Shown piece by piece: positions 10,389 to 20,683 of a DNA stretch of 64,000 nt. The translations under genes were made by a program, and so were the position numbers. The DNA comes from a virus. Its lineage: Duplodnaviria > Caudoviricetes. Under the pieces are notes generated by a model. The model did no database searches and had not been told where the DNA came from. It saw only the letters and a program-made list of their open reading frames with translations. The stretch is from IMG/VR virus record IMGVR_UViG_3300037312_001491, positions 1-64,000 of that record. One strand, 5' to 3'. Numbering within the stretch: the stretch's first letter is position 1; each line of letters opens with the position of its first letter.

Positions 10389-10417
10389 TTGCGTCGAATT
10401 CCGCCTGGTGCTACGAA
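10389..10417 (+). promoter_or_regulatory. Promoter of tRNA-Leu cluster (leaderless leader ORF follows)
   Basis: TTGCGT-N17-TACGAA then ACAGTC-ATG. Confidence 0.55.
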
Positions 10418-10423
10418 ACAGTC

Positions 10424-10489
10424 ATGCACCGGTTCCGCCACATCGTCGCCCTGCGGCTACTTGTCGCGGCGCAGTTGCGCGCGAACTGA
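10424..10489 (+). CDS. Putative Leu-sensing leader peptide MHRFRHIVALRLLVAAQLRAN
   Basis: Four Leu residues with four different codons (CTG, CTA, CTT, TTG); stop is 7 nt before first tRNA-Leu. Confidence 0.6.
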   Translation: MHRFRHIVALRLLVAAQLRAN

Positions 10490-10496
10490 TCCTCTC

Positions 10497-10571
10497 GCCG
10501 GCGTAGCCCAGGCAGGTAGAGGCAACGGTCCCAAACACCGCCCAGCGCGGGTTCGAGTCCCGCCGCCGGCA
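10497..10571 (+). tRNA. trnL: tRNA-Leu(CAA), short variable loop
   Basis: GCCGGCG/CGCCGGC acceptor, loop CC-CAA-AC, GTTCGAGTC T-loop. Confidence 0.8.
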
Positions 10572-10572
10572 C

Positions 10573-10645
10573 GTCGCGGTAGCCCAATGGCAGAGGCAGC
10601 AGGTTGAGAGCCTGTCCAGTGCGGGTTCGAGTCCCGCCCACGGCA
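10573..10645 (+). tRNA. trnL: tRNA-Leu(GAG), short variable loop
   Basis: Anticodon stem GCAGG/CCTGT, loop TT-GAG-AG, T-arm GCGGG-TTCGAGT-CCCGC. Confidence 0.85.
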
Positions 10646-10649
10646 CGAC

Positions 10650-10723
10650 GCCATCGTAGCGCAATTGGTAGAGGCGCCAGACTCAGGATCTGGTTAGTGC
10701 GGGTTCGAGTCCCGCCGATGGCA
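10650..10723 (+). tRNA. trnL: tRNA-Leu(CAG), short variable loop
   Basis: GCCATCG/CGATGGC acceptor, CCAGA-CTCAGGA-TCTGG. Confidence 0.9.
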
Positions 10724-11117
10724 CGACTAGCCGGGGATGCCCCGGCACTCCCAGCACCACCCGCACCGGTGCTCCGGGCAGCAGTGCAGCTCGCGTCGCG
10801 GGTCGACGACGTTGCAGCGCAGCTCGCGCCGCGCCTCGACGCTCGCGCGGTAGGAGGCGCGTTCGTCGTAGCGAGCGGCCGCCTCGCGGACGATCTGCCC
10901 GATGGTCGGCGGCACGTACTCGATCCACTCGGGCGAGGCGATGGCCGGCTCCGTCTGCTTGTAGAGGGAGCACCAGGTGTAGCCACCGGTGTTGATGCGG
11001 CGGACGTGGGGCTGTGCGTACGGACGGTGAGCGGCCCGGACCAGGCCACAGGCGTCGCAACCGCGTCGCGGGTCGGTGGCCGGCGCGTTGTGCGGGTTCG
11101 TGACCGCGTAATCGTGG

Positions 11118-11453
11118 TCAGGTGCCACGGAGCCCTCCGCCAGTCTCGCTGTTGCACCCTGCGCACGCGGGGCGGATGTTGCCGCGGACGTAGCGCCCGC
11201 CCTTGCAGCCGGGCACGATGCGGTCGACGGTGACGGTCTGCTCGGTGAGCAGTGTCCCGCAGCGGTAGCAGCGGCAGACCGGCACGCCGCCACCGAGAAA
11301 GACGGTGCTGTTGACGTTCGGGTCAACACAGAGGTCGACGTTCGCGCGCCACGCCGTGACCAGCCAGCGCCGCCGCGCCGCGCGGTCGCGCGAATTGCCG
11401 CGGGCGTTGCTGTTGCTCGTGCCACGCGTAGCGGGTTGCGACTGGCCGGTCAT
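11118..11453 (-). CDS. HNH endonuclease-family protein
   Basis: CYRCG...VTVDRIVPGCKGGRYVRGNIRPACAGCNS. Confidence 0.75.
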   Translation of the reverse strand: MTGQSQPATRGTSNSNARGNSRDRAARRRWLVTAWRANVDLCVDPNVNSTVFLGGGVPVCRCYRCGTLLTEQTVTVDRIVPGCKGGRYVRGNIRPACAGCNSETGGGLRGT

Positions 11454-11818
11454 CGGAAGATGCAGGTGGTCGGTTCGACCACGGCCCAGTCGTTGGAGGT
11501 GGCGTCGAGGACGATGGGGAACAGCAGCTCCAGGAGCAGGACGTCCCCGATGACGTAGCGGGTCTGGACGGTCGCGTGCACGTAGCATGTGCCGATGACG
11601 CTGTCGCCAACGCGCGCCGTGATGGCGTGGTCGTGACGCCCCTCGACGTAGAGGCGGTGGTGGTCGGCGCGGCCGACCGGAACGTCGTCAACGGTGAACT
11701 CCGCCGACATAGGCACTGGCACGGTGATGGGCACGTCGGTGGCGTCGTTGAACATGCGGCCGCAGGCCGGCAGAGCACCGGCAGCGATGAGGACGAGAGC
11801 GAGCAGGGCGGTCTTCAC
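11450..11818 (-). CDS. Putative lipoprotein (PEGA-like beta fold possible)
   Basis: GTG start, KTALLALVLIAAGALPAC lipobox, AEFTVDDVPVG. Confidence 0.55.
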   Translation of the reverse strand: MKTALLALVLIAAGALPACGRMFNDATDVPITVPVPMSAEFTVDDVPVGRADHHRLYVEGRHDHAITARVGDSVIGTCYVHATVQTRYVIGDVLLLELLFPIVLDATSNDWAVVEPTTCIFR

Positions 11819-12021
11819 GGGAACTCCTTCATGAACTTTTCGACGCGGTCCATTGCGGCCGCGGTCTTGTGTTTCCACTCGAAAGCGAGACGCGAGTCGG
11901 TGATGCGCGCCAGGTCGCCGGCCAGCGTCGCCGGGAAGGCCGCGAGCGACCACCCGGCCAGGGTCTTGAGGAGCTTGTCGCGCCGCTCGTGGAACTCGGC
12001 GTGCGGGTCGGACAGACCCAT
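11815..12021 (-). CDS. Hypothetical protein
   Basis: ORF packed in operon. Confidence 0.4.
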   Translation of the reverse strand: MGLSDPHAEFHERRDKLLKTLAGWSLAAFPATLAGDLARITDSRLAFEWKHKTAAAMDRVEKFMKEFP

Positions 12022-12044
12022 CTCGGAGGCGTAGTGACCCACGG

Positions 12045-12977
12045 CTAGTCGTCTCCGTAGGGGTCCCAGCCGACGACCGCGGCGTCCGCGGCCTGCTCGG
12101 CGTAGTGCGTCTCTTCGACCTTCGCGTTGAGGCGTGACTTCCACTCCTGCTGAGCGACCGCCCACTGCAACGGGGTGAGCGCCAGGTCGCCGACCTTGAT
12201 GTTGAGCACCGCACCGCGGTGGCCGCTGCCCTCCTCGCGGAGGTGCTCGTGCTGCATGGCGCGTTCGTAGCGCTCGAAGCACTGCGCGCGCGTGAGACCG
12301 TCGATGAGGTCGGGCTTGGGCGCCTTGTAGCCGCACGACACCGGCGCGGTCAGCGGCGCCTTGACGTCGGCCTCCGGGTAGTCGGTGAACAGCGCGTCGA
12401 GGAACAGCCAGCAGTAGCCGGTGCCGAACGGGCCGTCGGTCGGGCCCTGGGTGAGCGAGTCCTTCGCGGTCGCCGGGTGGACCTCGTTGATGAACGCCTG
12501 GAGTGGGATCCAGCGCGCACGCGAGCGGCACACGCCGCGCGGCACAGTCAGCGAGTCGACGACGCACGCGATGTGGCCCTCGTACTCGGTCACGTGCAGG
12601 ACCTTGACCGGGCAGATGTCGTCGAGGCGGACCCAGGTCAGCGGGCCGTTCTCTTCACCTATCCCCTTGGGTAGATCTTCGCCGGTGTCGCCGTCGAGGA
12701 AGGAGTACGGGCGGACCAAGAGGTTGTCGCTGCGCCCACTGAACAGGAACGAGTGCTCGACGTTGGCGGACACGTCCTTGGTGTTGACGATCGCGAACAG
12801 CCGGCCGTCGCGTTCGCGGCGGCCGATACACTTGACGGGAATCATGGTGGTCTCCTGGGGTGGGAGGAAGCAGCGGCAGTTCGGGGTGGGTGGCAGCATG
12901 GCGCGTAGCTCGCGGCGCCACTCCCTGCGAGCGGCGATCCAGTCGGCCGGGGACATCAGGTCCCCTTGAGCCACCAC
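12045..12977 (-). CDS. Hypothetical protein with a motif repeated at N- and C-terminus
   Basis: GDLMSPADWIAARREWRRELRA vs GDLALTPLQWAVAQQEWKSRLNA. Confidence 0.6.
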   Translation of the reverse strand: MVAQGDLMSPADWIAARREWRRELRAMLPPTPNCRCFLPPQETTMIPVKCIGRRERDGRLFAIVNTKDVSANVEHSFLFSGRSDNLLVRPYSFLDGDTGEDLPKGIGEENGPLTWVRLDDICPVKVLHVTEYEGHIACVVDSLTVPRGVCRSRARWIPLQAFINEVHPATAKDSLTQGPTDGPFGTGYCWLFLDALFTDYPEADVKAPLTAPVSCGYKAPKPDLIDGLTRAQCFERYERAMQHEHLREEGSGHRGAVLNIKVGDLALTPLQWAVAQQEWKSRLNAKVEETHYAEQAADAAVVGWDPYGDD

Positions 12978-13612
12978 GGCGTGACGCGCACAAACCTCGT
13001 CACGGTGTGCGCATCGTCGCCGCTGGTGACAAGACCAATTAGGTCACCGCCCATGTCGTAGACGGGCGAGCCGGAGTCCCCCTTGTACGTGGGGGCGTCG
13101 ACATACGGGCCGTGGAGGTCGCCGCAGGCGCGACCGCGCCGGGTCAGCACGCACGCTCGGTCGCCGATGCGGGCGAGCCTGGGCGGCGCCACACCGAGGC
13201 CGAAGCGATCGGCGTCGCCGATCAGCTCCAGGCGGGCGAGGTCGGTACCGTCGCCGAACATCTGCGCGTCGATGGTGACCTCGACCAGCCACTGCTTGCC
13301 GTTGGGCAGCGTGATGACGGCGGTCGGGATGTCCGGGCAGCGCACGGCGTGCGCGACCGTGAGCACGTGGCGCTCCGAGACAACCACGCCCGTGGCGACG
13401 CGGTGAGGGTACCACTCGATGTCTGAATCGAACTGGTGCGGGTCATCCGGCTCGCCGGTCTTGAACGGGGCCTCGGTCACGCAGTCGACGTCGACGCGGA
13501 CGATGGTGCCGTCCTGCGCGCCCGCCGCGCGCGGCGCGGGGTCCACGTGATGGAGGGGGAACAGGGAGCAGCCAGCCAGGCAGAGCAGGAGGAGGTGCAG
13601 CTTGCGGAGCAT
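12956..13612 (-). CDS. Trypsin-like serine protease, lipoprotein signal
   Basis: LLLLCLAGC lipobox; catalytic triad motifs VLTVAHAV, DLARL, GDSGSPV. Confidence 0.85.
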   Translation of the reverse strand: MLRKLHLLLLCLAGCSLFPLHHVDPAPRAAGAQDGTIVRVDVDCVTEAPFKTGEPDDPHQFDSDIEWYPHRVATGVVVSERHVLTVAHAVRCPDIPTAVITLPNGKQWLVEVTIDAQMFGDGTDLARLELIGDADRFGLGVAPPRLARIGDRACVLTRRGRACGDLHGPYVDAPTYKGDSGSPVYDMGGDLIGLVTSGDDAHTVTRFVRVTPWWLKGT

Positions 13613-13650
13613 GCCCAAGGGACGCCGCGTGGCGGCAATTTTGTTCCGCG

Positions 13651-13686
13651 AAAAAAGAAAAAACCCCGCCAAATCGGCGGGGTCTT
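13651..13686 (-). terminator. Rho-independent terminator of the rsr-yrl unit
   Basis: Minus strand AGACCCCGCC-GATTT-GGCGGGGTTTTTTCTTTTTT. Confidence 0.85.
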
Positions 13687-13695
13687 TAGAGAATA

Positions 13696-13827
13696 GACGG
13701 ATGAAAATTGAGCCAGGACTTTTGTACTTGCGCTCTATCCGCTGAGCTACGAGGCCCTTGCGATCCCCGGAGGGAGTTGAACCCTCGACCTCAAGTTCCG
13801 ATGGTGATCCTGATTCGACGACCCGCC
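13696..13827 (-). ncRNA. yrlA: YrlA-like Y RNA with tRNA-like domain
   Basis: Terminal stem GGCGGGT/ATCCGTC; T-arm GAGGG-TTCAACT-CCCTC precedes a GCAA-capped acceptor-like stem and D-arm TAGCTCAGCGGATAGAGC, the permuted order described for YrlA; adjacent to Ro gene. Confidence 0.8.
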
Positions 13828-13832
13828 AAAAA

Positions 13833-13915
13833 GTTGGTGGACAAAATGTGGCCTGGGGTGCCCTTTCGGGCGGTCATTTAGCAAATGGTAACCCAGAATC
13901 CGTCCGGCCCACCGT
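13833..13915 (-). ncRNA. yrlB: YrlB-like Y RNA
   Basis: 5' GGTGGGCCGG pairs with 3' TTGTCCACC leaving a bulged C, like the Ro-binding helix (GGUCCGA/UUGAC); lies directly after the Ro stop codon. Confidence 0.65.
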
Positions 13916-13944
13916 GTACAGATACTACGCGCCAGGCGGGCGCG

Positions 13945-15597
13945 CTATTCCTCGTCCTCGTTCTTTTCGACCGGCGCCGCCTCACCACGGACGAAATCCG
14001 AGATGATCGCAGGGAGTGCGGCGTCGAAGCCGACGACGTCCATCATGCCGGAGTCGCCGGGGTCGGCGATGGTTTGCGCGGTCGCGACCATGCCAACGAC
14101 AACCGAGCGCGCGTCGACGCCCGAACGCCGGCGGTAGTCCTGGAGCGCGATGTGCGGATGGCGCGCGCCGCGGAAGGTCTCGTTGTCCGTGTAGACGACG
14201 AAGCCGGCCGGCTTGGCGCCCGTCTGGATGGCCCACTCGAACGGCAGCGAGCAGTCCGTCGCGCCGTACGGGATGCGGCCCATGACGTGGCACGCCTCGG
14301 CGAGGCGCATCGACTTGTTGATCGGCACCTCGACGAAGTGGTGCGAGAACCCCATCAGGTGGTAGTTCGGCTCCGCGTGCGCCGTGACGAGCGCCATCGC
14401 CGCCGCGGCCTCGCGGCAGCTGAGCAGGCCGTTCGCGGTGCTGTGCGAGGTCATCGAGCCCGACACGTCGAGCGCGAGCAGCATCGGCTTGCCGACCGGC
14501 ACGACGTTGCCGAACGAGCCGTAGAACGCGGCATCGAGCGCGTCGTTGACGACCTGCACTGGCGTCCAGGACAGCTCGCCCTTGAGGCCGTGGCCGCGCC
14601 CGTACATCTTCGCCGCGATGAGCACGGCCATCGGGTGGACGCGCGAGCGGCGCAACGCCTCGCCATCGGCGAGACGGGCAGCGACGTACATCGACGCGTC
14701 CGACAGCGGCGCGATGAGGCCGACCGCGGTCATCTTGGCGAGGTTGCGGATCAGTGCGGTCGGCGGCATGCCGTACTTGCCGGCGCGCAGCAGCGCGTCC
14801 CACACCTCGACGTTGTTGAGGTGCTGCGTCGGGATGGCCTCGCGCGGCAGACCGTAGTCGCGGATGAGTGAGATGAGGCGCTTGACGTCGCACGTCTTGG
14901 CCTCCTCGAACGCCTGAATCGTCGCCGGCAGGACGAGCCCGTCGGCGTAGCTCGTGCGCGCCCACCGGTAGATCGCGCCGTGGTCGGGCGTCGCCGGATG
15001 CGGGTGCGCGAGCTTGATGAGATCGCGCGCGGCCCAGCCGTCGCGCTGCTGGTACTTCACCAGCTGGTACGCGAGGTCGGAGGCCGACTTCTCGTTGAAC
15101 CACTTCGCGACCGCGCGGCGCATGCCGCGGCCCCAGCCGTGTCCCATCGACTCGACGAACGCGACGAAGTGGTAGAGGTGCGTGCCGGTGCGGCAGACCT
15201 TGGGCAGCGCCTCGTAGGCGAGCTGGCGCGTGTTCTCGTGGTGGTGCCGCGCCTCGGGGTCCTCGACGCCGACGTTGGCGGCGATGGCGAGCGCGAAGAT
15301 GGCGGGGTTGTTCTTGGGCGCGCGGCCCGACTCCGAAATCTCGACGATGCGGCGGACCAGGCGCGCGCCGTCCGCGAGCGCGAGGCGCAACACGACGAGC
15401 GCGTTCTCGCGCGAGAGCTTGCGCTCGTCGACGTAGAACGTGCCGCCCTCGCTGCCGAGGATCAGGAAGCGGTCCAGGCGGGACCAGTCGTCGACGACGA
15501 AGCTGAATCCTCCTGCGTGGTTGGGTGCCTGGCTGGGGTGCGCCTGCTCGGTCTGCGGGACGGGTCCCAGGGCGTTCTTCAAGTGCTCGATCGACAT
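13945..15597 (-). CDS. rsr: Ro60/Rsr RNA-binding protein (TROVE + vWA)
   Basis: NHAGGFSF.VDDWSRLDRFLILGSEGGTFY, GRAPK, VCRTGTHLYHF, GWGRGMRRAV, LVKYQQRDGW, ALDVSGSM, VYTDNET. Confidence 0.95.
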   Translation of the reverse strand: MSIEHLKNALGPVPQTEQAHPSQAPNHAGGFSFVVDDWSRLDRFLILGSEGGTFYVDERKLSRENALVVLRLALADGARLVRRIVEISESGRAPKNNPAIFALAIAANVGVEDPEARHHHENTRQLAYEALPKVCRTGTHLYHFVAFVESMGHGWGRGMRRAVAKWFNEKSASDLAYQLVKYQQRDGWAARDLIKLAHPHPATPDHGAIYRWARTSYADGLVLPATIQAFEEAKTCDVKRLISLIRDYGLPREAIPTQHLNNVEVWDALLRAGKYGMPPTALIRNLAKMTAVGLIAPLSDASMYVAARLADGEALRRSRVHPMAVLIAAKMYGRGHGLKGELSWTPVQVVNDALDAAFYGSFGNVVPVGKPMLLALDVSGSMTSHSTANGLLSCREAAAAMALVTAHAEPNYHLMGFSHHFVEVPINKSMRLAEACHVMGRIPYGATDCSLPFEWAIQTGAKPAGFVVYTDNETFRGARHPHIALQDYRRRSGVDARSVVVGMVATAQTIADPGDSGMMDVVGFDAALPAIISDFVRGEAAPVEKNEDEE

Positions 15598-15786
15598 TCG
15601 GCCCTCCTCGCGAGTCTGTGATTGTCCAGGAGACGCGCGGTGCGCGCGAAAAATTCCGCGTGATTGTGTCGCCTCCGCCCGGCCGGAACCGCCAGGAATA
15701 CGTAAATTTACTAATTGACGATGTCCTTTCAGCCATGTAGCTATGGGCCACGCGCTTGCAGTGCGTTAACCTCGAAGGAGAGAGTC

Positions 15787-16392
15787 ATGGTGAACATCAA
15801 CGCGAATACGAGTTTGGAAGGTGTCGAGGCTACCATCACCACGCTCCAGGAGCAGATCGACGAGTTGAAGTCTCGTCTCCGCCTGGCGCGTGGAACGGAC
15901 GACCTCACCAAAGCCGCGGCCGATGCCGCACGCAACGCAGCCGCGGTCACGCCGCTGCCTCGGCCGCTGACGCTGGAGGAACAGATCGAGGCGCACCTGC
16001 GCCGACAGATCATGACCACCACGCAGCTCTCCAAGGCGCTCGGCGTGCCGACGGACCAGGTGCTCACCTCCATCAAGAGGATGCGCTCGAAGGTCCACAA
16101 CCTCGGCACGACCGACTGCGCGCGCTGGTCCTGGCGCATCGGCAGCGACGCCTCGCCGGCCGAGCTGCGCGCGCTGGTCGAGCGCCTCATCTCGTTCATG
16201 CCGCTGGAGTTTCGCGAGATCGTCACGGCCACCGGCGCTCGCGACGGCCTGGTGCAGGGTCACCTGGTGGAGCTGCGGAAGGTGAAGAACGTCGTCGACC
16301 TCGGCGCCGGTTCGTCGTCGAAGGCGCGGTGGTTCCTCATGCCCGAGAACGCTCGGGACGCCAGGCTGCCTCGTCGCGGCAAGACGGAATAG
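15787..16392 (+). CDS. Putative DNA-binding protein: N-terminal coiled coil plus two winged-helix-like repeats
   Basis: MTTTQLSKALGVPTDQVLTSIKRM...W and LEFREIVTATGARDGLVQGHLVEL...W; GAAGGAG RBS; TTGACG promoter at ~15715. Confidence 0.6.
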   Translation: MVNINANTSLEGVEATITTLQEQIDELKSRLRLARGTDDLTKAAADAARNAAAVTPLPRPLTLEEQIEAHLRRQIMTTTQLSKALGVPTDQVLTSIKRMRSKVHNLGTTDCARWSWRIGSDASPAELRALVERLISFMPLEFREIVTATGARDGLVQGHLVELRKVKNVVDLGAGSSSKARWFLMPENARDARLPRRGKTE

Positions 16393-16393
16393 C

Positions 16394-16422
16394 TTGACGA
16401 CCTCGCGCGTAGAAGGTATCAA
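16394..16422 (+). promoter_or_regulatory. Promoter of main tRNA array (leaderless leader ORF follows)
   Basis: TTGACG-N17-TATCAA then CCAGTC-ATG. Confidence 0.65.
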
Positions 16423-16428
16423 CCAGTC

Positions 16429-16557
16429 ATGATGACCAGGGCATCCACCGAAACGTTCGCGAAGCGCGCCAGCGCTGCGACGGTGTGGTGCGTCCGCGGT
16501 CACGAGTACCAGGGCACCATCAACCCGTCGGATGACGCGGAGGCCCTCGATAGCTGA
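16429..16557 (+). CDS. Putative attenuator leader peptide MMTRASTETFAKRASAATVWCVRGHEYQGTINPSDDAEALDS
   Basis: 42 codons, all 20 amino acids, 31 distinct codons; its 3' end forms one strand of an antiterminator. Confidence 0.7.
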   Translation: MMTRASTETFAKRASAATVWCVRGHEYQGTINPSDDAEALDS

Positions 16558-16582: not shown

Positions 16583-16620
16583 GAGGGCGCCCCGGGAAAC
16601 CGCGGCGCCCTTTTCGTTTT
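16583..16620 (+). terminator. Intrinsic terminator (attenuator) upstream of tRNA array
   Basis: GAGGGCGCC-C-CGG-GAAA-CCG-C-GGCGCCC followed by TTTTCGTTTT. Confidence 0.85.
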
Positions 16621-16621: not shown

Positions 16622-16709
16622 GGGAGCGCAGACCGGCGTGGCTCCGGGCCTGGCCGTAACCCAGGCTGCCTTCGGGCACAGGATGGTTCGATTCCGTCCG
16701 CTCCCACCA
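16622..16709 (+). tRNA. trnY: tRNA-Tyr(GTA), long variable arm
   Basis: GGGAGCG/CGCTCCC, CCTGG-CCGTAAC-CCAGG, CCA end. Confidence 0.8.
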
Positions 16710-16787
16710 CCCCCCTCTCACCCAGGGGACTGACAACTGAATAGCTGACGACGACGAGGTCGGGCCCGCGTGGGCTCGGCCATTCAC

Positions 16788-16861
16788 TCGGGGATCGTTC
16801 AATGGTAGGACGTCGGTTTCTGGAACCGGCTATCCAGGTTCGAGTCCTGGCCCCCGATCCA
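16788..16861 (+). tRNA. trnQ: tRNA-Gln(CTG)
   Basis: Loop TT-CTG-GA, T-arm CCAGG-TTCGAGT-CCTGG, CCA. Confidence 0.9.
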
Positions 16862-16862
16862 T

Positions 16863-16935
16863 GTCCCTCGCGTATGGCTGGTGCGTACGCCTGGTTGAAG
16901 CCCAGGAGGCTGAGGTTCGATTCCTCGGGGGGACA
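16863..16935 (+). tRNA. trnF: tRNA-Phe(GAA)
   Basis: CCTGG-TTGAAGC-CCAGG. Confidence 0.85.
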
Positions 16936-16940
16936 CGAGA

Positions 16941-17009
16941 GGGGAGGCGTGGGTCCGAATCCCACCGTCCGGCCTGGTGCCGGGCGAAGTGCTGCGGTGG
17001 CACGCCCCC
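16941..17009 (+). ncRNA. Circularly permuted tRNA-like element 1
   Basis: Closing stem, T-arm GTGGG-TCCGAAT-CCCAC, closed acceptor-like stem CGTCCGGC/GCCGGGCG, AA, D-like arm GTGC-TGCGGTG-GCAC. Confidence 0.6.
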
Positions 17010-17015
17010 GTTTTT

Positions 17016-17090
17016 GGGCCGCTAGCTCCAATGCAGAGCAACGGGTTCTTACCCCGCTGGTTCTGGGTTCAAGTCCCAGGCGACCCACCA
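17016..17090 (+). tRNA. trnK: tRNA-Lys(CTT)
   Basis: Loop TT-CTT-AC, CCA. Confidence 0.85.
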
Positions 17091-17100
17091 CGCGTTCGTC

Positions 17101-17175
17101 GAGTCCGCAGCTCTCAGGTAGAGCACGCGCCTTTTAAGCGAGGAGGTGCAGGTTCGACTCCTGCCGGACTCACCA
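17101..17175 (+). tRNA. trnK: tRNA-Lys(TTT)
   Basis: GAGTCCG/CGGACTC, loop CT-TTT-AA, CCA. Confidence 0.9.
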
Positions 17176-17282
17176 TAAGCCGACAGCGGCACCTGGTTGC
17201 CGGGCGCGCGATGACGATCGGCGCGCGAACGATGAAGCGCGGACCCAAGTCCGTCAGCCGAGTTGAACCAGGAGATCTTTCT

Positions 17283-17355
17283 GCGGCTGTGCCCAGGGTG
17301 GGCAGCGAGAGTGCCACTCTTGCCTCGGTGGGTTCGATCCCCATCGGCCGCTCCA
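17283..17355 (+). tRNA. trnG: tRNA-Gly(GCC)
   Basis: CGAGA-GTGCCAC-TCTTG, U73, CCA; short D-loop. Confidence 0.75.
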
Positions 17356-17356
17356 T

Positions 17357-17432
17357 TGTAGCCGAGGGTTCGATTCCCTCCCAAGGGAGCTGCGCAAGCA
17401 GCGCGACCGGGGCGTTAGGGTACGGGGCTACA
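17357..17432 (+). ncRNA. Circularly permuted tRNA-like element 2
   Basis: TGTAGCC/GGCTACA closing stem, T-arm GAGGG-TTCGATT-CCCTC, GCAA-capped stem GCTGC/GCAGC, D-like arm CGT-TAGGGT-ACG. Confidence 0.55.
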
Positions 17433-17436
17433 GCTT

Positions 17437-17511
17437 GCGGGTGTCGCGCTCAAGGTGAGCCAGCGGTCTTCCACACCGCCCAGGCGGGTCCGATTCCCGT
17501 CGCCCGCTCCA
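17437..17511 (+). tRNA. trnG: tRNA-Gly(TCC)
   Basis: GCGGT-CTTCCAC-ACCGC, U73, CCA. Confidence 0.85.
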
Positions 17512-17512
17512 C

Positions 17513-17586
17513 GCCGATGTAGCTCCGAGGTGGAGCAGTGGTCCCGTAAACCACCGGGCTGGGTTCGACTCCCAGCGTCGGCTCCA
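17513..17586 (+). tRNA. trnT: tRNA-Thr(CGT)
   Basis: GTGGT-CCCGTAA-ACCAC, CCA. Confidence 0.85.
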
Positions 17587-17588
17587 GT

Positions 17589-17661
17589 GCCCTCCAGGCG
17601 TCCGTGGGAACGCGCCGCACTTGTAATGCGGATGTGGCCGGTTCGACTCCGGCGAAGGGCT
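17589..17661 (+). tRNA. trnT: tRNA-Thr(TGT)
   Basis: CCGCA-CTTGTAA-TGCGG. Confidence 0.85.
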
Positions 17662-17666
17662 CCGAT

Positions 17667-17743
17667 GTATCCCTCGTATCTCTGGTGAGTACGGCGGCCT
17701 GTTAAGCCGAGAGAGCTGGGTTCGATTCCCAGGGGATACGCCA
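17667..17743 (+). tRNA. trnN: tRNA-Asn(GTT)
   Basis: GTATCCC/GGGATAC, loop CT-GTT-AA, G73, CCA. Confidence 0.85.
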
Positions 17744-17745
17744 AC

Positions 17746-17820
17746 GGCCCATGAGTCAGCTGGTGTGGACGGCAGCCTCTCAAGCTGTCGAGCCGGGATC
17801 GTAACCCGGATGGGTCACCA
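17746..17820 (+). tRNA. trnE: tRNA-Glu(CTC)
   Basis: GCAGC-CTCTCAA-GCTGT; atypical T-loop ATCGTAA; CCA. Confidence 0.85.
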
Positions 17821-17827
17821 AATTTTT

Positions 17828-17904
17828 GCCTCCGCAGCTCGACTGGATCGAGCACACGGCTACGGACCGTGGGGTTGCAGGTTCGACTCCTGCCGGAGGC
17901 GCCA
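17828..17904 (+). tRNA. trnR: tRNA-Arg(ACG)
   Basis: CACGG-CTACGGA-CCGTG, CCA. Confidence 0.9.
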
Positions 17905-17905
17905 T

Positions 17906-17980
17906 GGGATGCAGCGCGCGGGCCGCGCCGCCGGTCTCCAAAGCCGTGCAGAGAGGGTTCGATTCCCTCGCATCTCGCCA
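17906..17980 (+). tRNA. trnW: tRNA-Trp(CCA)
   Basis: Loop CT-CCA-AA, G73, CCA. Confidence 0.8.
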
Positions 17981-17981
17981 T

Positions 17982-18054
17982 CGCAGCGACCCAGGGCGCC
18001 GGAGCGGCCCATAACCGCCACCGCGTAGGGGTTCGAGTCCCCCCGCTGCGACCA
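17982..18054 (+). tRNA. tRNA(CAT), elongator Met or Ile2
   Basis: CGCAGCG/CGCTGCG, GCGG-CCCATAA-CCGC, CCA. Confidence 0.7.
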
Positions 18055-18055
18055 C

Positions 18056-18136
18056 GCGGGCTTGAGGTGGCGCCGCCGACGAGGTCTAGAACGACTCGGT
18101 GGGCGTTCGCCGGTGCGAATCCGGCGACCCGCTCCA
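18056..18136 (+). tRNA. Atypical tRNA-like gene, anticodon ambiguous (hairpin contains TCTAGAA)
   Basis: Acceptor GCGGGCT/GACCCGC plus TCCA and T-arm GCCGG-TGCGAAT-CCGGC present; D arm unclear, irregular extended anticodon arm. Confidence 0.5.
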
Positions 18137-18142
18137 ATTCAC

Positions 18143-18217
18143 AGAGGGATAGCCTACTGGGCAGGCGCTTGTTTCGGGAACAAGATCAGGCGGGTTCGAT
18201 TCCCGTTCCCTCTACCA
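18143..18217 (+). tRNA. trnP: tRNA-Pro(CGG)
   Basis: AGAGGGA/TCCCTCT, CTTGT-TTCGGGA-ACAAG, CCA. Confidence 0.85.
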
Positions 18218-18218
18218 C

Positions 18219-18294
18219 GCGGGGCAGCTCACCTGGCGGTGGGATCACTCCTACAAAATGACCGCGCAGAGTCCGATTCTCTGGCCCCGCACCA
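18219..18294 (+). tRNA. trnV: tRNA-Val(TAC)
   Basis: GCGGGGC/GCCCCGC, loop CC-TAC-AA, CCA. Confidence 0.8.
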
Positions 18295-18381
18295 TCCATG
18301 AACGCAGGCCCGCACAACTCCCCCGGACGCACGAGCGTCGCGAAAGTGGAGGCCATGCCGGGAAGGGCGCTGTGTTCACAT

Positions 18382-18455
18382 CCGTTGCTAGCTCAAAGCA
18401 GAGCGTCCGCTCGATAAGCGGAGGGTTGCAGGTGCGAGTCCTGCGCGACGGACCA
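18382..18455 (+). tRNA. trnI: tRNA-Ile(GAT)
   Basis: TCCGC-TCGATAA-GCGGA, CCA. Confidence 0.85.
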
Positions 18456-18536
18456 TGCGGGGAAGCGGAGCAGGTGCATGCCGCGGGGGGCTCATAACCC
18501 CCATTAGCCGGGTTCGAGTCCCGTGTCCCGCTACCA
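18456..18536 (+). tRNA. trnM: tRNA-fMet(CAT), initiator-like
   Basis: GGGGG-CTCATAA-CCCCC (consecutive G-C pairs), unpaired first acceptor position, ACCA end. Confidence 0.75.
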
Positions 18537-18600
18537 ACGCGAGCGACCCGCGCCCAGGTCGTGGCTAGCGCTCGCGCCGAGCGCCGACAACAGACGTCAT

Positions 18601-18676
18601 GGTGCCTATAGCTGTAGTGGTCGCACGGCGGATTGTGTCTCCGCAAGGGCGGGTTCGATTCCCGCTAGGTACCCCA
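18601..18676 (+). tRNA. trnH: tRNA-His(GTG)
   Basis: G-1:C73 pair, GCGGA-TTGTGTC-TCCGC, CCA. Confidence 0.85.
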
Positions 18677-18703
18677 CACACGTGCTAATCCAGGAGGAGA
18701 GTC

Positions 18704-19255
18704 ATGCAGGCCGAGAGCTTCGCGACGAACGAGCAGACCCTAGTCCTCGACCCTGGCATGCGCCCGGTCGAGGTCGTGCACTGGACGCGCGCCGTCGCGC
18801 TCTGGTTCCAGGACAAGGCGGAGGTCATCGCCGAGTACGATGGCTTCGCGCGCTCGTCCTCGCTGGTGATCAAGATCCCGGCTGTGGTTCGCCTCCTGCA
18901 TGCGTTCAAGCGCGACCGGAAGCCGGTCAAGTTCTCGCGCGTGAACATTTACGCCCGCGACGGCTACCGCTGCCAGTATTGCGGCGGCAAGTTCACGATG
19001 GGTGAGCTGACCTACGACCACGTTGTCCCCCGCTCGCGTGGGGGAAAGACGAGCTGGGAGAACATCGTGTCCGCGTGTCACGCATGCAACCGCCGCAAGG
19101 CGTGCCGCACGCCGGAGCAGGCGGGAATGAAGCTCCGCAAGGTGCCCGTGCAGCCGCAGGCCGTGCCGGTGCTCGTGATCCCGCTGTCGAGGAAGACCGT
19201 CCCCGACGCGTGGCGCGACTACCTGTACTGGACCGGCGAACTGGACCGGGACTGA
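18704..19255 (+). CDS. HNH endonuclease (tRNA-array associated type)
   Basis: FSRVNIYARDGYRCQYCG...TYDHVVPRSRGGKTSWENIVSACHACNRRK. Confidence 0.95.
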   Translation: MQAESFATNEQTLVLDPGMRPVEVVHWTRAVALWFQDKAEVIAEYDGFARSSSLVIKIPAVVRLLHAFKRDRKPVKFSRVNIYARDGYRCQYCGGKFTMGELTYDHVVPRSRGGKTSWENIVSACHACNRRKACRTPEQAGMKLRKVPVQPQAVPVLVIPLSRKTVPDAWRDYLYWTGELDRD

Positions 19256-19362
19256 TCGAAAAGCCGTAGCGCGTCCGCAAAGCGCGTGAAGGCACGGCGC
19301 ACGAGGGGCAACCCGACCGCAGAAGCGGAGCCGCAACGGCCCTCCAGTGGGCCTCGTGTTTT

Positions 19363-19436
19363 GGTCCTGATTTCACCGGGTGGTGATGCGCCGCTGTCTA
19401 CGGCGTCGAGGAGGGGTTCGAGTCCCCCCAGGACCG
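19363..19436 (+). tRNA. trnD: tRNA-Asp(GTC)
   Basis: GGTCCTG/CAGGACC, CGCCG-CTGTCTA-CGGCG, G73. Confidence 0.85.
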
Positions 19437-19441
19437 CGAAT

Positions 19442-19513
19442 GGGCGCGTAGCTCAACGGGTGAGCGCTCCGCTGGCTGCGGAGAGGTTGCGGGTTCGAGT
19501 CCCGCCGTGTCCA
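19442..19513 (+). tRNA. trnA: tRNA-Ala(GGC)
   Basis: G3:U70 pair, CTCCG-CTGGCTG-CGGAG. Confidence 0.9.
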
Positions 19514-19519
19514 CGAAAC

Positions 19520-19594
19520 GGGGCCGTCATTCTAACGGGAAGATTCCTGGTCCGCACCCAGGCGATGTCGGTTCGATTCCGACCGGTTCCACCA
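19520..19594 (+). tRNA. trnA: tRNA-Ala(CGC)
   Basis: G3:U70 pair, CCTGG-TCCGCAC-CCAGG, CCA. Confidence 0.85.
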
Positions 19595-19595
19595 C

Positions 19596-19670
19596 GCCGA
19601 TGCAGCTCCTCTGGCGGAGCACTCGCCCGGTACGCGAGAGGGTCGGGTTCGAGTCCCGACGTCGGCTCCA
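19596..19670 (+). tRNA. trnT: tRNA-Thr(GGT)
   Basis: CTCGC-CCGGTAC-GCGAG, CCA. Confidence 0.85.
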
Positions 19671-19677
19671 GTTTCGA

Positions 19678-19752
19678 TCGGGGTTCGTCTAATCGGTAGG
19701 ACGGCGGACTTTGGATCCGCCTATGAGGGTCCGAGTCCCTCGCCCCGAACCA
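19678..19752 (+). tRNA. trnQ: tRNA-Gln(TTG)
   Basis: GCGGA-CTTTGGA-TCCGC, CCA. Confidence 0.9.
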
Positions 19753-19753
19753 C

Positions 19754-19826
19754 GCGCCGGTGGTCGAATGGAAAGGCACGGAGCTGCAACCTCCGCACAT
19801 CGCGAGTTCGATTCTCGCCCGGCGCT
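19754..19826 (+). tRNA. trnC: tRNA-Cys(GCA)
   Basis: CGGAG-CTGCAAC-CTCCG, U73. Confidence 0.9.
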
Positions 19827-20227
19827 CAAAGTAGTCCGTGATCAAATTCCCAATGGTGGTTCGGACACAAGAAGCGAATGTTCGAGCGCGCGTTCACCTC
19901 GACGAGTGGTGTGCTGTCGGGGAACGTGCTCAGCGCGACAACGTGACAGACCTCGACGTGCTTTGAGTAACCGCAGACCTCACATGATGCGCGCAGTCGC
20001 TCTGTGCGGTGCGTGGTGCGCGCTCGTTCTCGCACGTACGCGTGAAGCCAGGACGGATGACGGCCACGAAGGGACAAGAGGCGTCGCACGTCTCCGATTG
20101 TGATCACCCGGATGCTGTCGAGGCGGCGCTCTCGGCAATCAGAGCAGAACTCGGAACGATACTTGTTCTTCGCGATCTGCCAGGTCGCGCCACAGTTCTT
20201 GCAGCTTCGGATATGGGGCTGCCGCAT
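19826..20227 (-). CDS. HNH endonuclease-family protein, antisense inside tRNA array
   Basis: CKNC..FCSDC N-terminus; CEVCGYSKHVEVCHV...SNIRFLCPNHHWEFDH. Confidence 0.8.
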   Translation of the reverse strand: MRQPHIRSCKNCGATWQIAKNKYRSEFCSDCRERRLDSIRVITIGDVRRLLSLRGRHPSWLHAYVRERARTTHRTERLRASCEVCGYSKHVEVCHVVALSTFPDSTPLVEVNARSNIRFLCPNHHWEFDHGLL

Positions 20228-20267
20228 CTCGAAAGTCTTACGCCGCGAGATGCACCCGAACTTCCTT

Positions 20268-20344
20268 GTTCCCGTCGCCTCGCAGGATGAGGTACCGCAC
20301 TCCTAATGCGGATAGTGCAGGTTCGAGTCCTGCCGGGGACACCA
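20268..20344 (+). tRNA. trnR: tRNA-Arg(CCT)
   Basis: CCGCA-CTCCTAA-TGCGG, CCA. Confidence 0.9.
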
Positions 20345-20345
20345 C

Positions 20346-20417
20346 GGTTCCGTGACAGGATGTCGACCCGACGATCCGAACGTCGGCGGCCGGGTTCGAG
20401 TCCCGGCGGAATCACCA
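20346..20417 (+). tRNA. trnR: tRNA-Arg(CCG), 6-bp anticodon stem and small D arm
   Basis: GGTTCCG/CGGAATC, CCGACG-ATCCGAA-CGTCGG, CCA. Confidence 0.7.
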
Positions 20418-20419
20418 AC

Positions 20420-20497
20420 GGCCGCGCGGCAAACTGCTGGTGTGGTAGCCGGCTTTTCACCCCGGTGCTTCGGGTTCGATTCCCGCCGCGGTCACCA
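20420..20497 (+). tRNA. trnE: tRNA-Glu(TTC)
   Basis: Loop TT-TTC-AC, GGCCGCG/CGCGGTC, CCA. Confidence 0.75.
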
Positions 20498-20510
20498 TCG
20501 TCGTCAGCTT

Positions 20511-20598
20511 GGCGTCGGAGAGGGCAACAGGTGCCCTACCGGTCTCGAAAACCGGGTGCCCCGAAAGGGGCCGGGTTCAACCCCTAACGGCGCCGCCA
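20511..20598 (+). tRNA. trnS: tRNA-Ser(CGA), long variable arm
   Basis: CCGGT-CTCGAAA-ACCGG, GCCCC-GAAA-GGGGC arm, G73, CCA. Confidence 0.8.
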
Positions 20599-20599
20599 T

Positions 20600-20683
20600 G
20601 GAAGGACAGCCGGTGCAGGTGCCCGGAGCCGTTTGCTAAACGGATGTGCCCGCAAGGGTCGGGTTCGAGTCCCCGTTCTTCCG
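20600..20683 (+). tRNA. trnS: tRNA-Ser(GCT), long variable arm
   Basis: GGAAGGA/TTCTTCC, loop TT-GCT-AA, GCCC-GCAA-GGGT arm, G73. Confidence 0.8.

What the first reader, a model, noticed from the sequence alone, without database searches (positions are those of the whole stretch)
10389..20683. Integrated phage tRNA-crisis locus: codon-sensing leaders, full tRNA set, Ro60/Y RNAs and permuted tRNA mimics
Seen within ~10 kb: 34 tRNA or tRNA-like genes covering all 20 amino acids, two leader ORFs, rsr-yrlB-yrlA, a tandem winged-helix gene and two permuted tRNA-like RNAs. Established: in Salmonella the rsr-yrlBA-rtcBA operon responds to tRNA damage, and phage tRNAs can offset host tRNA-cleaving defences. 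Inference: this is a coordinated counter-defence that detects, replaces and clears damaged tRNA. No RtcB ligase is visible in this window.
Basis: inference. Interest (0 to 1): 0.85.

Follow-up and report, generated by a model that had tools for sequence, protein, structure and literature searches.

The report
Phage tRNA island with translation-sensing switch
A free-living soil phage carries 34 tRNA genes beside a Ro60/Y-RNA unit. Its main tRNA block sits behind a tiny gene that spells all 20 amino acids and a transcription stop, so the phage probably makes tRNAs only when ribosomes stall.

Summary
There are 34 tRNA genes (28 firm, 6 weak) for all 20 amino acids, a full Ro60 gene with a YrlA-type Y RNA and a second Y-like hairpin, two small ORFs, one true circularly permuted tRNA mimic, and no RtcB. 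Two points are wrong. The DNA is a complete 88-kb free phage genome, not an integrated one. Ro60 lies on the opposite strand from the tRNAs, so it is not in one operon with them.

The strongest result concerns the main leader. In 11 diverged phage loci a 38-59-codon ORF ends 23-37 nt before a conserved terminator that directly precedes the first tRNA. Six of the 11 ORFs hold all 20 amino acids (combined p about 1e-7), the peptides cannot be aligned, and the stop-codon region pairs with the terminator's 5' arm. This fits a leader-peptide attenuator that senses general decoding failure. The library I searched holds no paper describing this for tRNA genes.

The Leu "leader" has no terminator and is unsupported. 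Ro60 next to tRNA arrays is recurrent and already in databases and print. A "detect, replace, clear" programme remains inference.

This scan has already noted similar tRNA-array leaders and permuted tRNA mimics on other phage DNA.

The parts
10389..10423 (+). Promoter-like element of the Leu triplet (TTGCGT-N17-TACGAA, then ACAGTC before the ATG)
   Evidence: The 15-mer TAYSAAMCAGTCATG occurs only here and at 16417 in the window (0.11 expected). CAGTCATG occurs only twice in the whole genome. The generic sigma-70 consensus scan did not call it.
10424..10489 (+). 21-codon ORF with 4 Leu codons, ending 7 nt before tRNA-Leu; no terminator follows
   Evidence: Sequence and translation. The fold shows no hairpin plus U-tract. 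A role as leader is unsupported.
10497..10724 (+). tRNA-Leu CAA, GAG and CAG
   Evidence: ARAGORN; Rfam tRNA 46-59 bits.
11118..11588 (-). HNH endonuclease gene
   Evidence: PHROG HNH families, E 1e-23.
12045..12977 (-). 310-aa protein of unknown function downstream of the Ro60 unit
   Evidence: Coding by GC3. No Pfam or PHROG match. No relative in the Ro60 loci.
12956..13672 (-). Trypsin-like serine protease gene
   Evidence: Pfam Trypsin_2, E 4e-8. Not conserved beside Ro60 in relatives.
13655..13690 (-). Intrinsic terminator ending the Ro60/Y RNA unit
   Evidence: 13-bp stem plus T-tract; sequence.
13696..13827 (-). YrlA-type Y RNA: long closing stem, T arm, GCAA-capped acceptor-like stem, canonical D arm
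   Evidence: Rfam RF02553, 30.4 bits, E 7e-5 in a local search, below the gathering score of 69. ARAGORN accepts its core as a tRNA once it is un-permuted.
13830..13925 (-). Second Y-like stem-loop RNA in the yrlB position
   Evidence: Position and a 7-bp terminal stem with internal loops. The fold is no more stable than shuffles (z -0.3). No family match.
13945..15597 (-). Ro60 (Rsr) orthologue, 550 aa
   Evidence: Pfam vWA_Ro60 2e-56 and TROVE 1e-44. 41-51% identical to phage and metagenome Ro60 proteins.
15715..16392 (+). 225-aa gene, possibly a tandem winged-helix DNA-binding protein, divergent from Ro60 and directly upstream of the leader promoter
   Evidence: No Pfam match. Atlas structural matches to wHTH regulators have TM 0.33-0.47, so this is a lead only. 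No relatives in IMG/VR.
16394..16428 (+). Promoter-like element of the main array (TTGACG-N17-TATCAA, then CCAGTC), placing +1 at the A of the ATG (leaderless geometry)
   Evidence: TATCAA is also found before the L072 leader.
16429..16557 (+). 42-codon leader ORF holding all 20 amino acids (31 different codons), GC3 0.86
16535..16552 (+). Predicted anti-terminator segment in the last codons of the leader; pairs with 16580-16595
16585..16620 (+). Intrinsic terminator (11-bp stem, GAAA loop, T-tract) ending 1 nt before tRNA-Tyr; conserved in relatives
   Evidence: 9 conserved pairs, 2 with compensatory changes.
16622..18676 (+). tRNA block 1, 20 genes: Tyr, Gln, Phe, Lys x2, Gly x2, Thr x2, Asn, Glu, Arg, Trp, Met, Ser, Pro, Val, Ile, Met, His
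16937..17012 (+). Circularly permuted tRNA-like RNA (T arm, capped acceptor-like stem, D arm, closing stem) followed by a U-run; sits in a tRNA-sized slot between Phe and Lys
   Evidence: Fold z -2.5. ARAGORN accepts the un-permuted form at default thresholds, as it does the YrlA core. No Rfam YrlA hit.
17356..17436 (+). Second element with the same arm order, between the two tRNA-Gly genes; shares the T stem and GCAA cap with YrlA
   Evidence: Fold only (z -1.7). Not accepted by ARAGORN after un-permuting. No Rfam hit.
18704..19255 (+). HNH endonuclease of a family that travels with tRNA arrays
   Evidence: Pfam HNH 1e-14. Relatives (34-67% identity) lie inside tRNA arrays in 19 Ro60 loci and in 38 of 62 IMG/VR loci, and in Myxococcus phage Mx1.
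19338..19362 (+). Terminator-like hairpin plus T-run just before tRNA-Asp
19363..19827 (+). tRNA block 2: Asp, Ala x2, Thr, Gln, Cys
19826..20227 (-). Third HNH-like gene
   Evidence: PHROG HNH families, E 5e-6.
20268..20684 (+). tRNA block 3: Arg-CCU, Arg-CCG, Glu-UUC, Ser-CGA, Ser-GCU

Best explanation
This region is the translation-support island of a complete, non-integrated 88-kb phage from soil or rhizosphere.

Shown: 34 tRNA genes lie on the + strand in two units, a Leu triplet and a 31-gene main array. Each unit sits behind a related promoter-like element whose geometry puts the transcript start at an ATG. A Ro60 gene with a YrlA-type Y RNA and a second Y-like RNA forms a separate, oppositely oriented unit. 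Three HNH genes are present, one from a family that travels with tRNA arrays. One (perhaps two) further circularly permuted tRNA mimics occupy tRNA-sized slots in the array.

Inferred, with comparative support: the main array is gated by a leader-peptide attenuator. A leaderless 42-codon ORF that samples all 20 amino acids ends 27 nt before an intrinsic terminator that abuts tRNA-Tyr. The ORF's last codons can pair with the terminator's 5' arm. A ribosome that runs smoothly to the stop codon masks this anti-terminator, so transcription stops. A ribosome stalled earlier, for want of any usable aminoacyl-tRNA, leaves the anti-terminator free, so RNA polymerase reads into the tRNA genes. The phage would thus supply tRNAs on demand, with negative feedback.

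Inferred from other systems only: Ro60/Y RNA recruits host exonucleases to degrade misfolded or broken structured RNA. The HNH genes are homing endonucleases that spread or amplify array segments.
For: Parts.

Free phage.

Shared promoter/start motif, unique to the two tRNA units.

Terminator one base before tRNA-Tyr, so Tyr can only be expressed by read-through.

The same unit (small ORF, 23-37-nt spacer, conserved hairpin plus T-tract, first tRNA) is present in 10 further loci, found by two independent routes, Ro60 and HNH.

Hairpin conserved with 2 compensatory pairs.

In all 11 loci the nascent RNA fold pairs the terminator's 5' arm with a segment lying -26 to +10 nt from the stop codon.

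Leader ORFs hold 20, 20, 20, 20, 20, 20, 19, 19, 18, 18 and 16 different amino acids in 38-59 codons. Among 479 other small ORFs of the same loci, 1.5% hold all 20. Fisher p is 2e-8, 2e-7 without the window, and 4e-4 with a threefold penalty per locus.

The peptides cannot be aligned, yet GC3 exceeds GC1 and GC2 in 10 of 11. This suggests they are translated but selected for composition, not sequence.

Ro60 lies inside or beside large tRNA arrays in Gordonia phage Sixama, Streptomyces BE phages, Myxococcus phage Mx1 and 25 of 80 metagenome loci.

Seven tRNAs have C33 in place of U33. I read this, by inference, as consistent with nuclease-evading anticodon loops; the paper PMC10264068 does not itself discuss position 33.
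Against: There are no transcript, ribosome or host data.

The -10 elements lack the usual final T, and the consensus scan missed both promoters.

Anti-terminator duplex energies beat shuffles clearly only in L101. In equilibrium folds the terminator stays intact in L082 and L101.

In the window's leader, Asn, Pro, Asp and Leu lie in the last 10-11 codons. A stall there would cover the anti-terminator.

Amino-acid diversity is ordinary in L072 (16 of 39). In three loci I chose between two candidate ORFs.

The loci are homologous, so they are not fully independent.

The Leu unit has no terminator.

Ro60 is on the other strand. Of the five leader-bearing arrays found through the HNH gene, only one has a close Ro60 within 8 kb.

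YrlA scores below Rfam's gathering threshold. The second mimic is supported by folding alone.
Confidence: 0.6

Rival explanations
1. One reading: one coordinated, damage-induced 'tRNA-crisis' programme, like Salmonella rsr-yrlBA-rtcBA. In it the leaders detect tRNA damage, the array replaces the tRNAs, and Ro60/Y RNAs plus the mimics clear the fragments.
For: The parts are adjacent. Ro60-tRNA array linkage is recurrent. C33 anticodon loops are present. The literature treats phage tRNAs and TROVE proteins as answers to tRNA-targeting defences (PMC7824862, PMC10264068).
Against: Ro60 is on the opposite strand with its own terminator. There is no RtcB, RtcA or RNA ligase. Leader-bearing arrays often lack a nearby Ro60, and many phage Ro60 genes lack nearby tRNAs. 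A stalled-ribosome sensor cannot tell tRNA damage from starvation or codon mismatch. No co-induction data exist.
Confidence: 0.15
2. A plain tRNA supply island with no sensing. The hairpin is simply the terminator of the upstream wHTH/small-ORF transcript, the tRNAs are made by constitutive leaky read-through or by a phage anti-termination factor, and the small ORFs are incidental or encode fast-evolving micro-proteins.
For: Terminator-like hairpins 11-14 nt before first tRNAs also occur in unrelated array families. Anti-terminator energies are mostly not significant. GC-rich DNA yields many ORFs. A winged-helix-like gene lies just upstream. The Anabaena tRNA array is controlled by a repressor, not by attenuation (PMC10272220).
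Against: Excess amino-acid diversity is seen in 10 of 11 leaders. Spacing is conserved and pairing falls at the stop codon in all 11. GC3 shows a coding signature although the peptides cannot be aligned. The wHTH gene is not conserved in relatives.
Confidence: 0.2
3. The permuted elements are decayed remnants of tandem tRNA duplications in a recombination-prone, HNH-ridden array, with no function of their own.
For: The junction of two paralogous Leu tRNAs also passes the un-permuting test. Most hits to my permuted-tRNA scan in relatives proved to be ordinary tRNAs that ARAGORN had missed. Neither element hits Rfam YrlA. tRNA cassettes are swapped in a groundwater relative.
Against: Element 1 keeps four intact helices, a capped acceptor-like stem and exact tRNA-slot boundaries. 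Element 2 shares the T stem and GCAA cap with the genome's YrlA. Earlier notes of this scan report similar mimics beside Ro60-like genes in other phages (unchecked).
Confidence: 0.4

Closest known systems
Leader-peptide transcription attenuators of amino-acid operons (trpL, hisL, pheL, leuL, multivalent thrL/ilvL; pheL in PMC3082878; the rest from own knowledge)
   Same: A short translated ORF sits upstream. Its 3' end can pair with the 5' arm of an intrinsic terminator. The ribosome's position chooses between the anti-terminator and the terminator.
   Different: The regulated genes are tRNAs, not biosynthetic enzymes. The leader has no run of one codon but samples (nearly) all 20 amino acids once or twice. 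The layout has three segments rather than four, so an untranslated leader would give read-through. No Rfam leader family matches.
Polycysteine leaderless short ORFs of mycobacteria (Canestrari et al., bioRxiv 10.1101/834739)
   Same: A leaderless 5'-AUG short ORF acts as a ribosome-stalling sensor for downstream genes.
   Different: Those ORFs sense one amino acid and open a ribosome-binding site, which is translational control. Here a terminator is predicted and the output is tRNA.
Long tRNA array (trn operon) of Anabaena PCC 7120 (PMC8421152; repressor TrcR, PMC10272220)
   Same: An accessory array of about 26 tRNAs is silent by default and induced when translation is impaired. An HNH homing endonuclease gene is associated with it, and RNA repair genes lie nearby in some species.
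   Different: Control there is by a ribbon-helix-helix repressor acting on promoter repeats. The paper has no mention of a leader peptide, attenuation or a terminator. It is cellular, not phage, and has no Ro60.
Salmonella rsr-yrlBA-rtcBA RNA repair operon (Hughes et al. 2020, PMC7790460)
   Same: Ro60 is followed on the same strand by two Y RNAs, one of them a tRNA mimic.
   Different: No RtcB or RtcA is present. RtcR and a sigma-54 promoter were not tested. The context is a phage. No evidence of induction by tRNA fragments.
Phage Ro60/Y RNA pairs (mycobacteriophages, CcrColossus, Bacillus phage G: Chen et al. 2014, PMC4201824; Thermus phage phiLo: PMC12135203; jumbo phages: PMC7824862)
   Same: A phage-encoded Ro60 has adjacent tRNA-like Y RNA(s). 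They are proposed to hijack host PNPase or to support RNA repair.
   Different: This is a smaller 88-kb phage. The unit is inverted relative to the array. Extra mini mimics without the long Ro60-binding stem sit inside the array.
Phage tRNAs as counter-defence (van den Berg et al. 2023, PMC10264068; Azam et al. 2024, PMC11555353)
   Same: A near-complete tRNA set with unusual anticodon loops.
   Different: Those papers do not describe regulated expression. Here a sensor is proposed.
Homing endonucleases in phage tRNA regions (T4/T6 SegB: PMC2330249, PMC13096335)
   Same: A free-standing endonuclease gene is embedded among tRNA genes and recurs with arrays.
   Different: This is an HNH, not a GIY-YIG, enzyme. 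Its activity and targets are untested.

Membership tests
Ro60 / Rsr (TROVE family) | TROVE (HEAT-repeat ring) domain plus C-terminal vWA domain | tested here: met
   Pfam TROVE 154 bits and vWA_Ro60 191 bits, both far above the cut-offs.
YrlA (Rfam RF02553) | Score at or above the Rfam gathering threshold (69 bits) | tested here: not met
   30.4 bits; E 0.0027 over 12 kb and 7e-5 over 311 nt.
YrlA (Rfam RF02553) | Encoded within 4 kb of Ro60, with T arm, capped acceptor-like stem and D arm inside a long closing stem (Chen et al. 2014) | tested here: met
   It lies 130 nt downstream of Ro60 on the same strand. All three arms align to the model. The un-permuted core is accepted as a tRNA.
YrlA (for the two array elements) | Match to the YrlA covariance model, or a Ro60-binding stem | tested here: not met
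   No YrlA hit at E up to 10 on 16930-17440, apart from a tRNA-tRNA junction artefact. The closing stems are only 7-9 bp.
rsr-yrlBA-rtcBA RNA repair operon | RtcB ligase and RtcA cyclase in the operon | tested here: not met
   No PF01139 or PF01137 match in the whole 88-kb genome; the controls were positive.
rsr-yrlBA-rtcBA RNA repair operon | RtcR (CARF-domain sigma-54 activator) control and induction by tRNA fragments | not tested
   No search was made for RtcR. Induction needs an experiment.
Leader-peptide transcription attenuator | Short ORF directly upstream of an intrinsic terminator, with mutually exclusive anti-terminator pairing that overlaps the ORF's end | tested here: met
   In silico only. 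All 11 loci show pairing of the terminator's 5' arm with the stop-codon region, and a spacer of 23-37 nt. The terminator is conserved with covariation.
Leader-peptide transcription attenuator | Leader enriched in the codons whose decoding is sensed | tested here: inconclusive
   There is no codon run. Instead 6 of 11 leaders hold all 20 amino acids (p about 1e-7). This fits a general sensor but is a new pattern.
Leader-peptide transcription attenuator | Translation of the leader changes read-through | not testable with these tools
   Only a GC3 coding signature and leaderless promoter geometry are available.
Leader-peptide attenuator (Leu unit, 10424-10489) | Terminator or other switch between the ORF and the regulated genes | tested here: not met
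   The ORF ends 7 nt before tRNA-Leu. There is no hairpin plus U-tract.
Integrated prophage | Flanking host DNA, an integrase, attachment sites | tested here: not met
   A single 88,095-bp virus record rated 100% complete. No tyrosine integrase. Serine integrases and end repeats were not checked.
HNH homing endonuclease | HNH catalytic motif; free-standing gene with patchy distribution among otherwise similar loci | tested here: met
   Pfam HNH and HNH_5 at 1e-14. It is present in 19 of 105 Ro60 loci and in 38 array-bearing IMG/VR loci. Cleavage activity is untested.

The most novel reading that the evidence does not exclude
A clade of soil phages gates its near-complete tRNA array with a 'pan-amino-acid' leader peptide. 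The leader is a 40-60-codon leaderless ORF that samples all 20 amino acids and works as a general gauge of decoding capacity. Any shortage of usable tRNA, whether from anticodon nucleases, starvation or codon mismatch, stalls the ribosome, frees an anti-terminator and switches on the phage's own tRNA supply, which then shuts itself off. This would be leader-peptide attenuation applied to tRNA genes. It would imply that phage tRNAs are an inducible emergency supply and not a constitutive codon supplement. The array-embedded permuted tRNA mimics would be extra Y-like RNAs released by tRNA processing.
Probability: 0.45. Interest if true: 0.85.

Novelty: new variant of a known kind. Interest (0 to 1): 0.7.

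Why it matters
Why phages carry tRNAs has been debated for about 50 years (PMC10264068). A translation-sensing switch in front of the array would show when the phage needs them, namely on decoding failure, and would make the question testable with a simple reporter. It would also extend classical attenuation from amino-acid operons to tRNA genes, using a leader that reads the whole amino-acid alphabet. The Ro60/Y RNA neighbourhood, the array-linked HNH family and the C33 tRNAs add candidates for studying the arms race over tRNA between phages and bacterial defences.

Tried and rejected
- Close relatives for covariation: none found. Megablast against cultured phages gave no match. Ro60 relatives reach at most 51% identity in IMG/VR and metagenomes. 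The wHTH gene has no relatives.
- Sequencing runs: no RNA holder is listed. Contigs from four DNA runs were laid on the region, but the strain variants are almost identical in the leader and were uninformative. One 2-nt deletion in the terminator's 3' arm, seen in one contig, was not interpretable.
- Two terminator-motif scans of IMG/VR were too generic. Each gave more than 116 hits, and only L130 and L138 were relevant.
- My permuted-tRNA scan of relatives' arrays mostly hit ordinary tRNAs that ARAGORN had missed (L138, L269, L021) or an HNH gene (L101). It therefore gives no comparative support for elements 1 and 2.
- The Rnl1 ligase search had no positive control, so it says nothing.
- I queried 33288-34586 as a presumed terminase. 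It matched rIIB and gave no clue to the host.
- A cultured relative for experiments: Tunturiibacter phage Tunturi_5 has a small ORF and a terminator before a tRNA block, but with ordinary amino-acid diversity (16 of 37) and about 80 nt of room for a promoter.
- Two reviews (PMC10870794, PMC5062991) were not held in the library.

Full report
WHAT THE DNA IS. The window is the first 64 kb of a single 88,095-bp virus record that CheckV rates 100% complete. GC content is 68%. No tyrosine integrase is present. Public runs that hold near-identical DNA come from rhizosphere, soil and groundwater metagenomes. It is therefore a free phage genome, not an integrated element. Megablast finds no close relative among cultured phages.

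CHECK OF THE OBSERVATION: tRNAs. ARAGORN finds 28 tRNAs at default settings, all on the + strand. Rfam confirms most of them. Relaxed settings add Gly-GCC, Val-UAC, Glu-UUC and Ser-CGA. Very relaxed settings add Met-CAU and Arg-CCG, which I had also read by eye. The total is 34, arranged as 3 Leu, then blocks of 20, 6 and 5. They cover all 20 amino acids, with Val resting on a weak call. Seven tRNAs carry C33 in place of the near-universal U33. Across Ro60-linked arrays, 41 of 553 distinct tRNAs have C33.

CHECK OF THE OBSERVATION: Ro60 and Y RNAs. Ro60 (13945-15597) has TROVE and vWA_Ro60 domains but lies on the minus strand. Directly downstream on that strand are a Y-like stem-loop, a YrlA-type RNA and a strong terminator. 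The YrlA-type RNA scores 30.4 bits against Rfam, below the gathering score of 69, but its T arm, capped acceptor-like stem and D arm all align.

CHECK OF THE OBSERVATION: other genes. Three HNH genes lie in the region. The 225-aa gene between Ro60 and the array has only weak winged-helix structural matches. The whole genome lacks RtcB, RtcA, Rnl2-type ligase and CCA-adding enzyme.

IS THE Ro60-tRNA NEIGHBOURHOOD MORE THAN CHANCE? It recurs, but it is not obligatory.
- Among 356 cultured phages with a Ro60 gene, Gordonia phage Sixama has Ro60 abutting a 28-tRNA array that contains HNH genes.
- Streptomyces phage Starbow has Ro60 embedded in its array.
- Mycobacteriophage Cali has two tRNAs 3 kb away.
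- Gordonia phage Cashline has none nearby.
- Myxococcus phage Mx1 has Ro60, a few tRNAs, a peptidyl-tRNA hydrolase and a relative of the window's HNH flanked by tRNA-Leu genes.
- Of the 80 best metagenomic Ro60 relatives, 25 have 10 or more tRNAs within the fetched DNA, always on the Ro60 strand.
- Of 21 IMG/VR loci, two have large arrays.

Phage Ro60/Y RNA pairs are in print (PMC4201824, PMC12135203), as is the view that tRNAs, RNA repair and TROVE proteins are answers to attacks on translation (PMC7824862). In this window the Ro60 unit is inverted relative to the array and has its own terminator, so it is a neighbour and not an operon partner.

THE MAIN LEADER IN THE WINDOW. The two tRNA units are preceded by a shared 15-nt motif, TAYSAAMCAGTCATG. 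It occurs nowhere else in the window (0.11 expected). Its core 8-mer occurs only twice in the whole genome. The spacing puts +1 at the A of the ATG, which is the geometry of a leaderless mRNA. In front of the main array this ATG opens a 42-codon ORF that holds all 20 amino acids. The ORF ends 27 nt before an 11-bp GC hairpin with a T-tract, and that hairpin stops one base before tRNA-Tyr. tRNA-Tyr can therefore be made only by read-through. In the free RNA the ORF's last codons pair with the base of the terminator. With the stop-codon region masked, the full terminator forms.

THE MAIN LEADER IN OTHER LOCI. Comparison turned this from an anecdote into a pattern. Ro60-linked loci L082, L101 and L072, and then L138 and L130, have the same layout: a small ORF, a spacer, a conserved hairpin plus T-tract, then tRNA-Tyr followed by Lys, Lys, Gln or Phe. 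An independent search with the array's HNH protein gave L340, L342, L388, L344 and L356. The findings across all 11 loci are as follows.
- The hairpin keeps 9 pairs, 2 of them through compensatory changes.
- The spacer from the stop codon to the terminator arm is 23-37 nt, with a median of 27.
- The nascent RNA fold pairs the terminator's 5' arm with a segment lying -26 to +10 nt from the stop codon, that is, inside the footprint of a terminating ribosome.
- The ORFs hold 20, 20, 20, 20, 20, 20, 19, 19, 18, 18 and 16 different amino acids in 38-59 codons.
- Of 479 other ATG-ORFs of 35-60 codons in the same loci, 1.5% hold all 20 and 4.6% hold 19 or more.
- Fisher's combined p is 2e-8. It is 2e-7 without the discovery case, and 4e-4 after a threefold penalty per locus for the choice of ORF (an earlier estimate on six loci is).
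- The peptides cannot be aligned.
- GC3 exceeds GC1 and GC2 in 10 of 11. This is the signature of translated sequence whose composition matters and whose sequence does not.

I read this unit as a leader-peptide attenuator that gauges general decoding capacity.

CAVEATS ON THE LEADER.
- Duplex energies beat shuffled controls clearly in only one of the four loci tested.
- Equilibrium folds keep the terminator intact in two loci.
- Four amino acids of the window's leader lie too close to the stop codon to be sensed by this mechanism.
- The promoters lack a canonical -10 ending, and the consensus scan missed them.
- The loci are homologous, so they are not fully independent.
- There are no expression data.

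THE Leu 'LEADER'. This ORF shares the promoter/start motif and has four Leu codons among 21. It ends 7 nt before the first tRNA with no terminator in between. Four Leu in 21 residues is not unusual. I regard it as unsupported.

THE PERMUTED MIMICS. Element 16937-17012 folds into a closing stem, a T arm, a capped acceptor-like stem and a D arm. When its halves are swapped around an artificial anticodon loop, ARAGORN calls it a tRNA at default thresholds, as often as it does for the YrlA core. Three of five neighbouring tRNA-tRNA junction controls gave few or no such calls, one gave 12, and the junction of two paralogous Leu tRNAs gave many. Element 17356-17436 has the same arm order and shares the T stem and GCAA cap with YrlA, but it fails that test. 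Neither element hits Rfam YrlA. Apparent counterparts in relatives turned out to be ordinary tRNAs that had been missed. The elements may be mini Y-like RNAs or relics of tandem duplication; I put the relic reading at about 40%.

THE HNH FAMILY. Relatives of the 18704-19255 protein (34-67% identity) lie inside tRNA arrays in 19 of the Ro60 loci and in 38 of 62 IMG/VR loci. This matches published links between homing endonucleases and tRNA regions (PMC2330249, PMC8421152). SegB-driven amplification of tRNA-Tyr has also been reported (PMC13096335).

COMPARISON WITH WHAT IS KNOWN. The switch works like the trp/his-type attenuators and like the leaderless polycysteine ORFs of mycobacteria (10.1101/834739). 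Its output is tRNA, and its leader samples the whole amino-acid alphabet. The nearest published biology is the Anabaena tRNA array, which is induced by translational stress. That array is controlled by the repressor TrcR, and the paper does not mention a leader peptide, attenuation or a terminator (PMC8421152; PMC10272220). My literature searches found no attenuator described for tRNA genes. Earlier notes of this scan report similar leaders before tRNA arrays of Caulobacter, giant and marine phages, and permuted tRNA mimics beside Ro60-like genes. Those are unchecked AI notes, not publications.

VERDICT. The locus as a whole is a new member of a known kind: a phage tRNA array with a Ro60/Y RNA unit. 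The gating leader is a new variant of a known mechanism and is the part worth an experiment. A unified 'detect, replace, clear' programme is not shown.

Noticed in passing
window 10497-20684; loci L020-L105, L130, L138, L269: C33 replaces the near-universal U33 in 7 of the window's tRNAs (Leu-CAA, Tyr, Thr-CGU, Val, Ile, Ala-CGC, Thr-GGU). It is also seen in 41 of 553 distinct tRNAs of Ro60-linked arrays, most often in Leu-GAG (11 of 15).
   Followed up: partly
L032 3221-3249, L045 7272-7298, L046 1645-1673, L048 7460-7489: A second, unrelated array family has a strong hairpin plus T-tract 11 nt before its first tRNA (Gly-GCC). In L045 a 64-codon ORF with 18 of 20 amino acids ends 37 nt upstream. 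This may be another leader/terminator unit.
   Followed up: partly
L032 10828-10855 and the same position in L033, L034, L040, L041, L044, L057, L061: A conserved 12-bp hairpin lies between the Ro60 stop codon and a 'tRNA-Cys' call about 69 nt downstream. Whether this tRNA call is a true tRNA or part of a Y RNA was not examined.
   Followed up: no
L082 5120-5250: Just after Ro60 and tRNA-Arg there is a tRNA-like gene with normal acceptor, D and T arms but an insert of about 60 nt in place of the anticodon arm. It may be a non-permuted Y-like RNA or an intron-bearing tRNA.
   Followed up: no
window 17663-17818 and 18592-18679: A groundwater relative (run X6) replaces the Asn-Glu and His tRNA cassettes with different sequence of about the same length. 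This suggests cassette swapping within the array.
   Followed up: no
window 19338-19362: A terminator-like hairpin with a T-run lies directly before tRNA-Asp, after the HNH gene. The second tRNA block therefore also sits behind a stop signal.
   Followed up: no
window 16622-20684: About two thirds of the tRNA genes encode their own 3' CCA. This fits the absence of a phage CCA-adding enzyme.
   Followed up: partly
L401 (Tunturiibacter phage Tunturi_5) 8960-16700: The deposited record annotates no tRNAs in the fetched 20-kb stretch, yet ARAGORN finds about 26 there. They lie beside a relative of the HNH, a tRNA nucleotidyltransferase and an RtcB-like 'tRNA splicing ligase'.
   Followed up: partly
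window 33288-34586: This 432-aa protein matches rIIB of T4-like Aeromonas phages over its first half (37% identity).
   Followed up: no
window 20684-21916 (minus strand): A 410-aa gene abutting the last tRNA carries a short portal-like segment (Pfam Phage_portal_3, 26 bits, below the cut-off), far from the structural genes.
   Followed up: no
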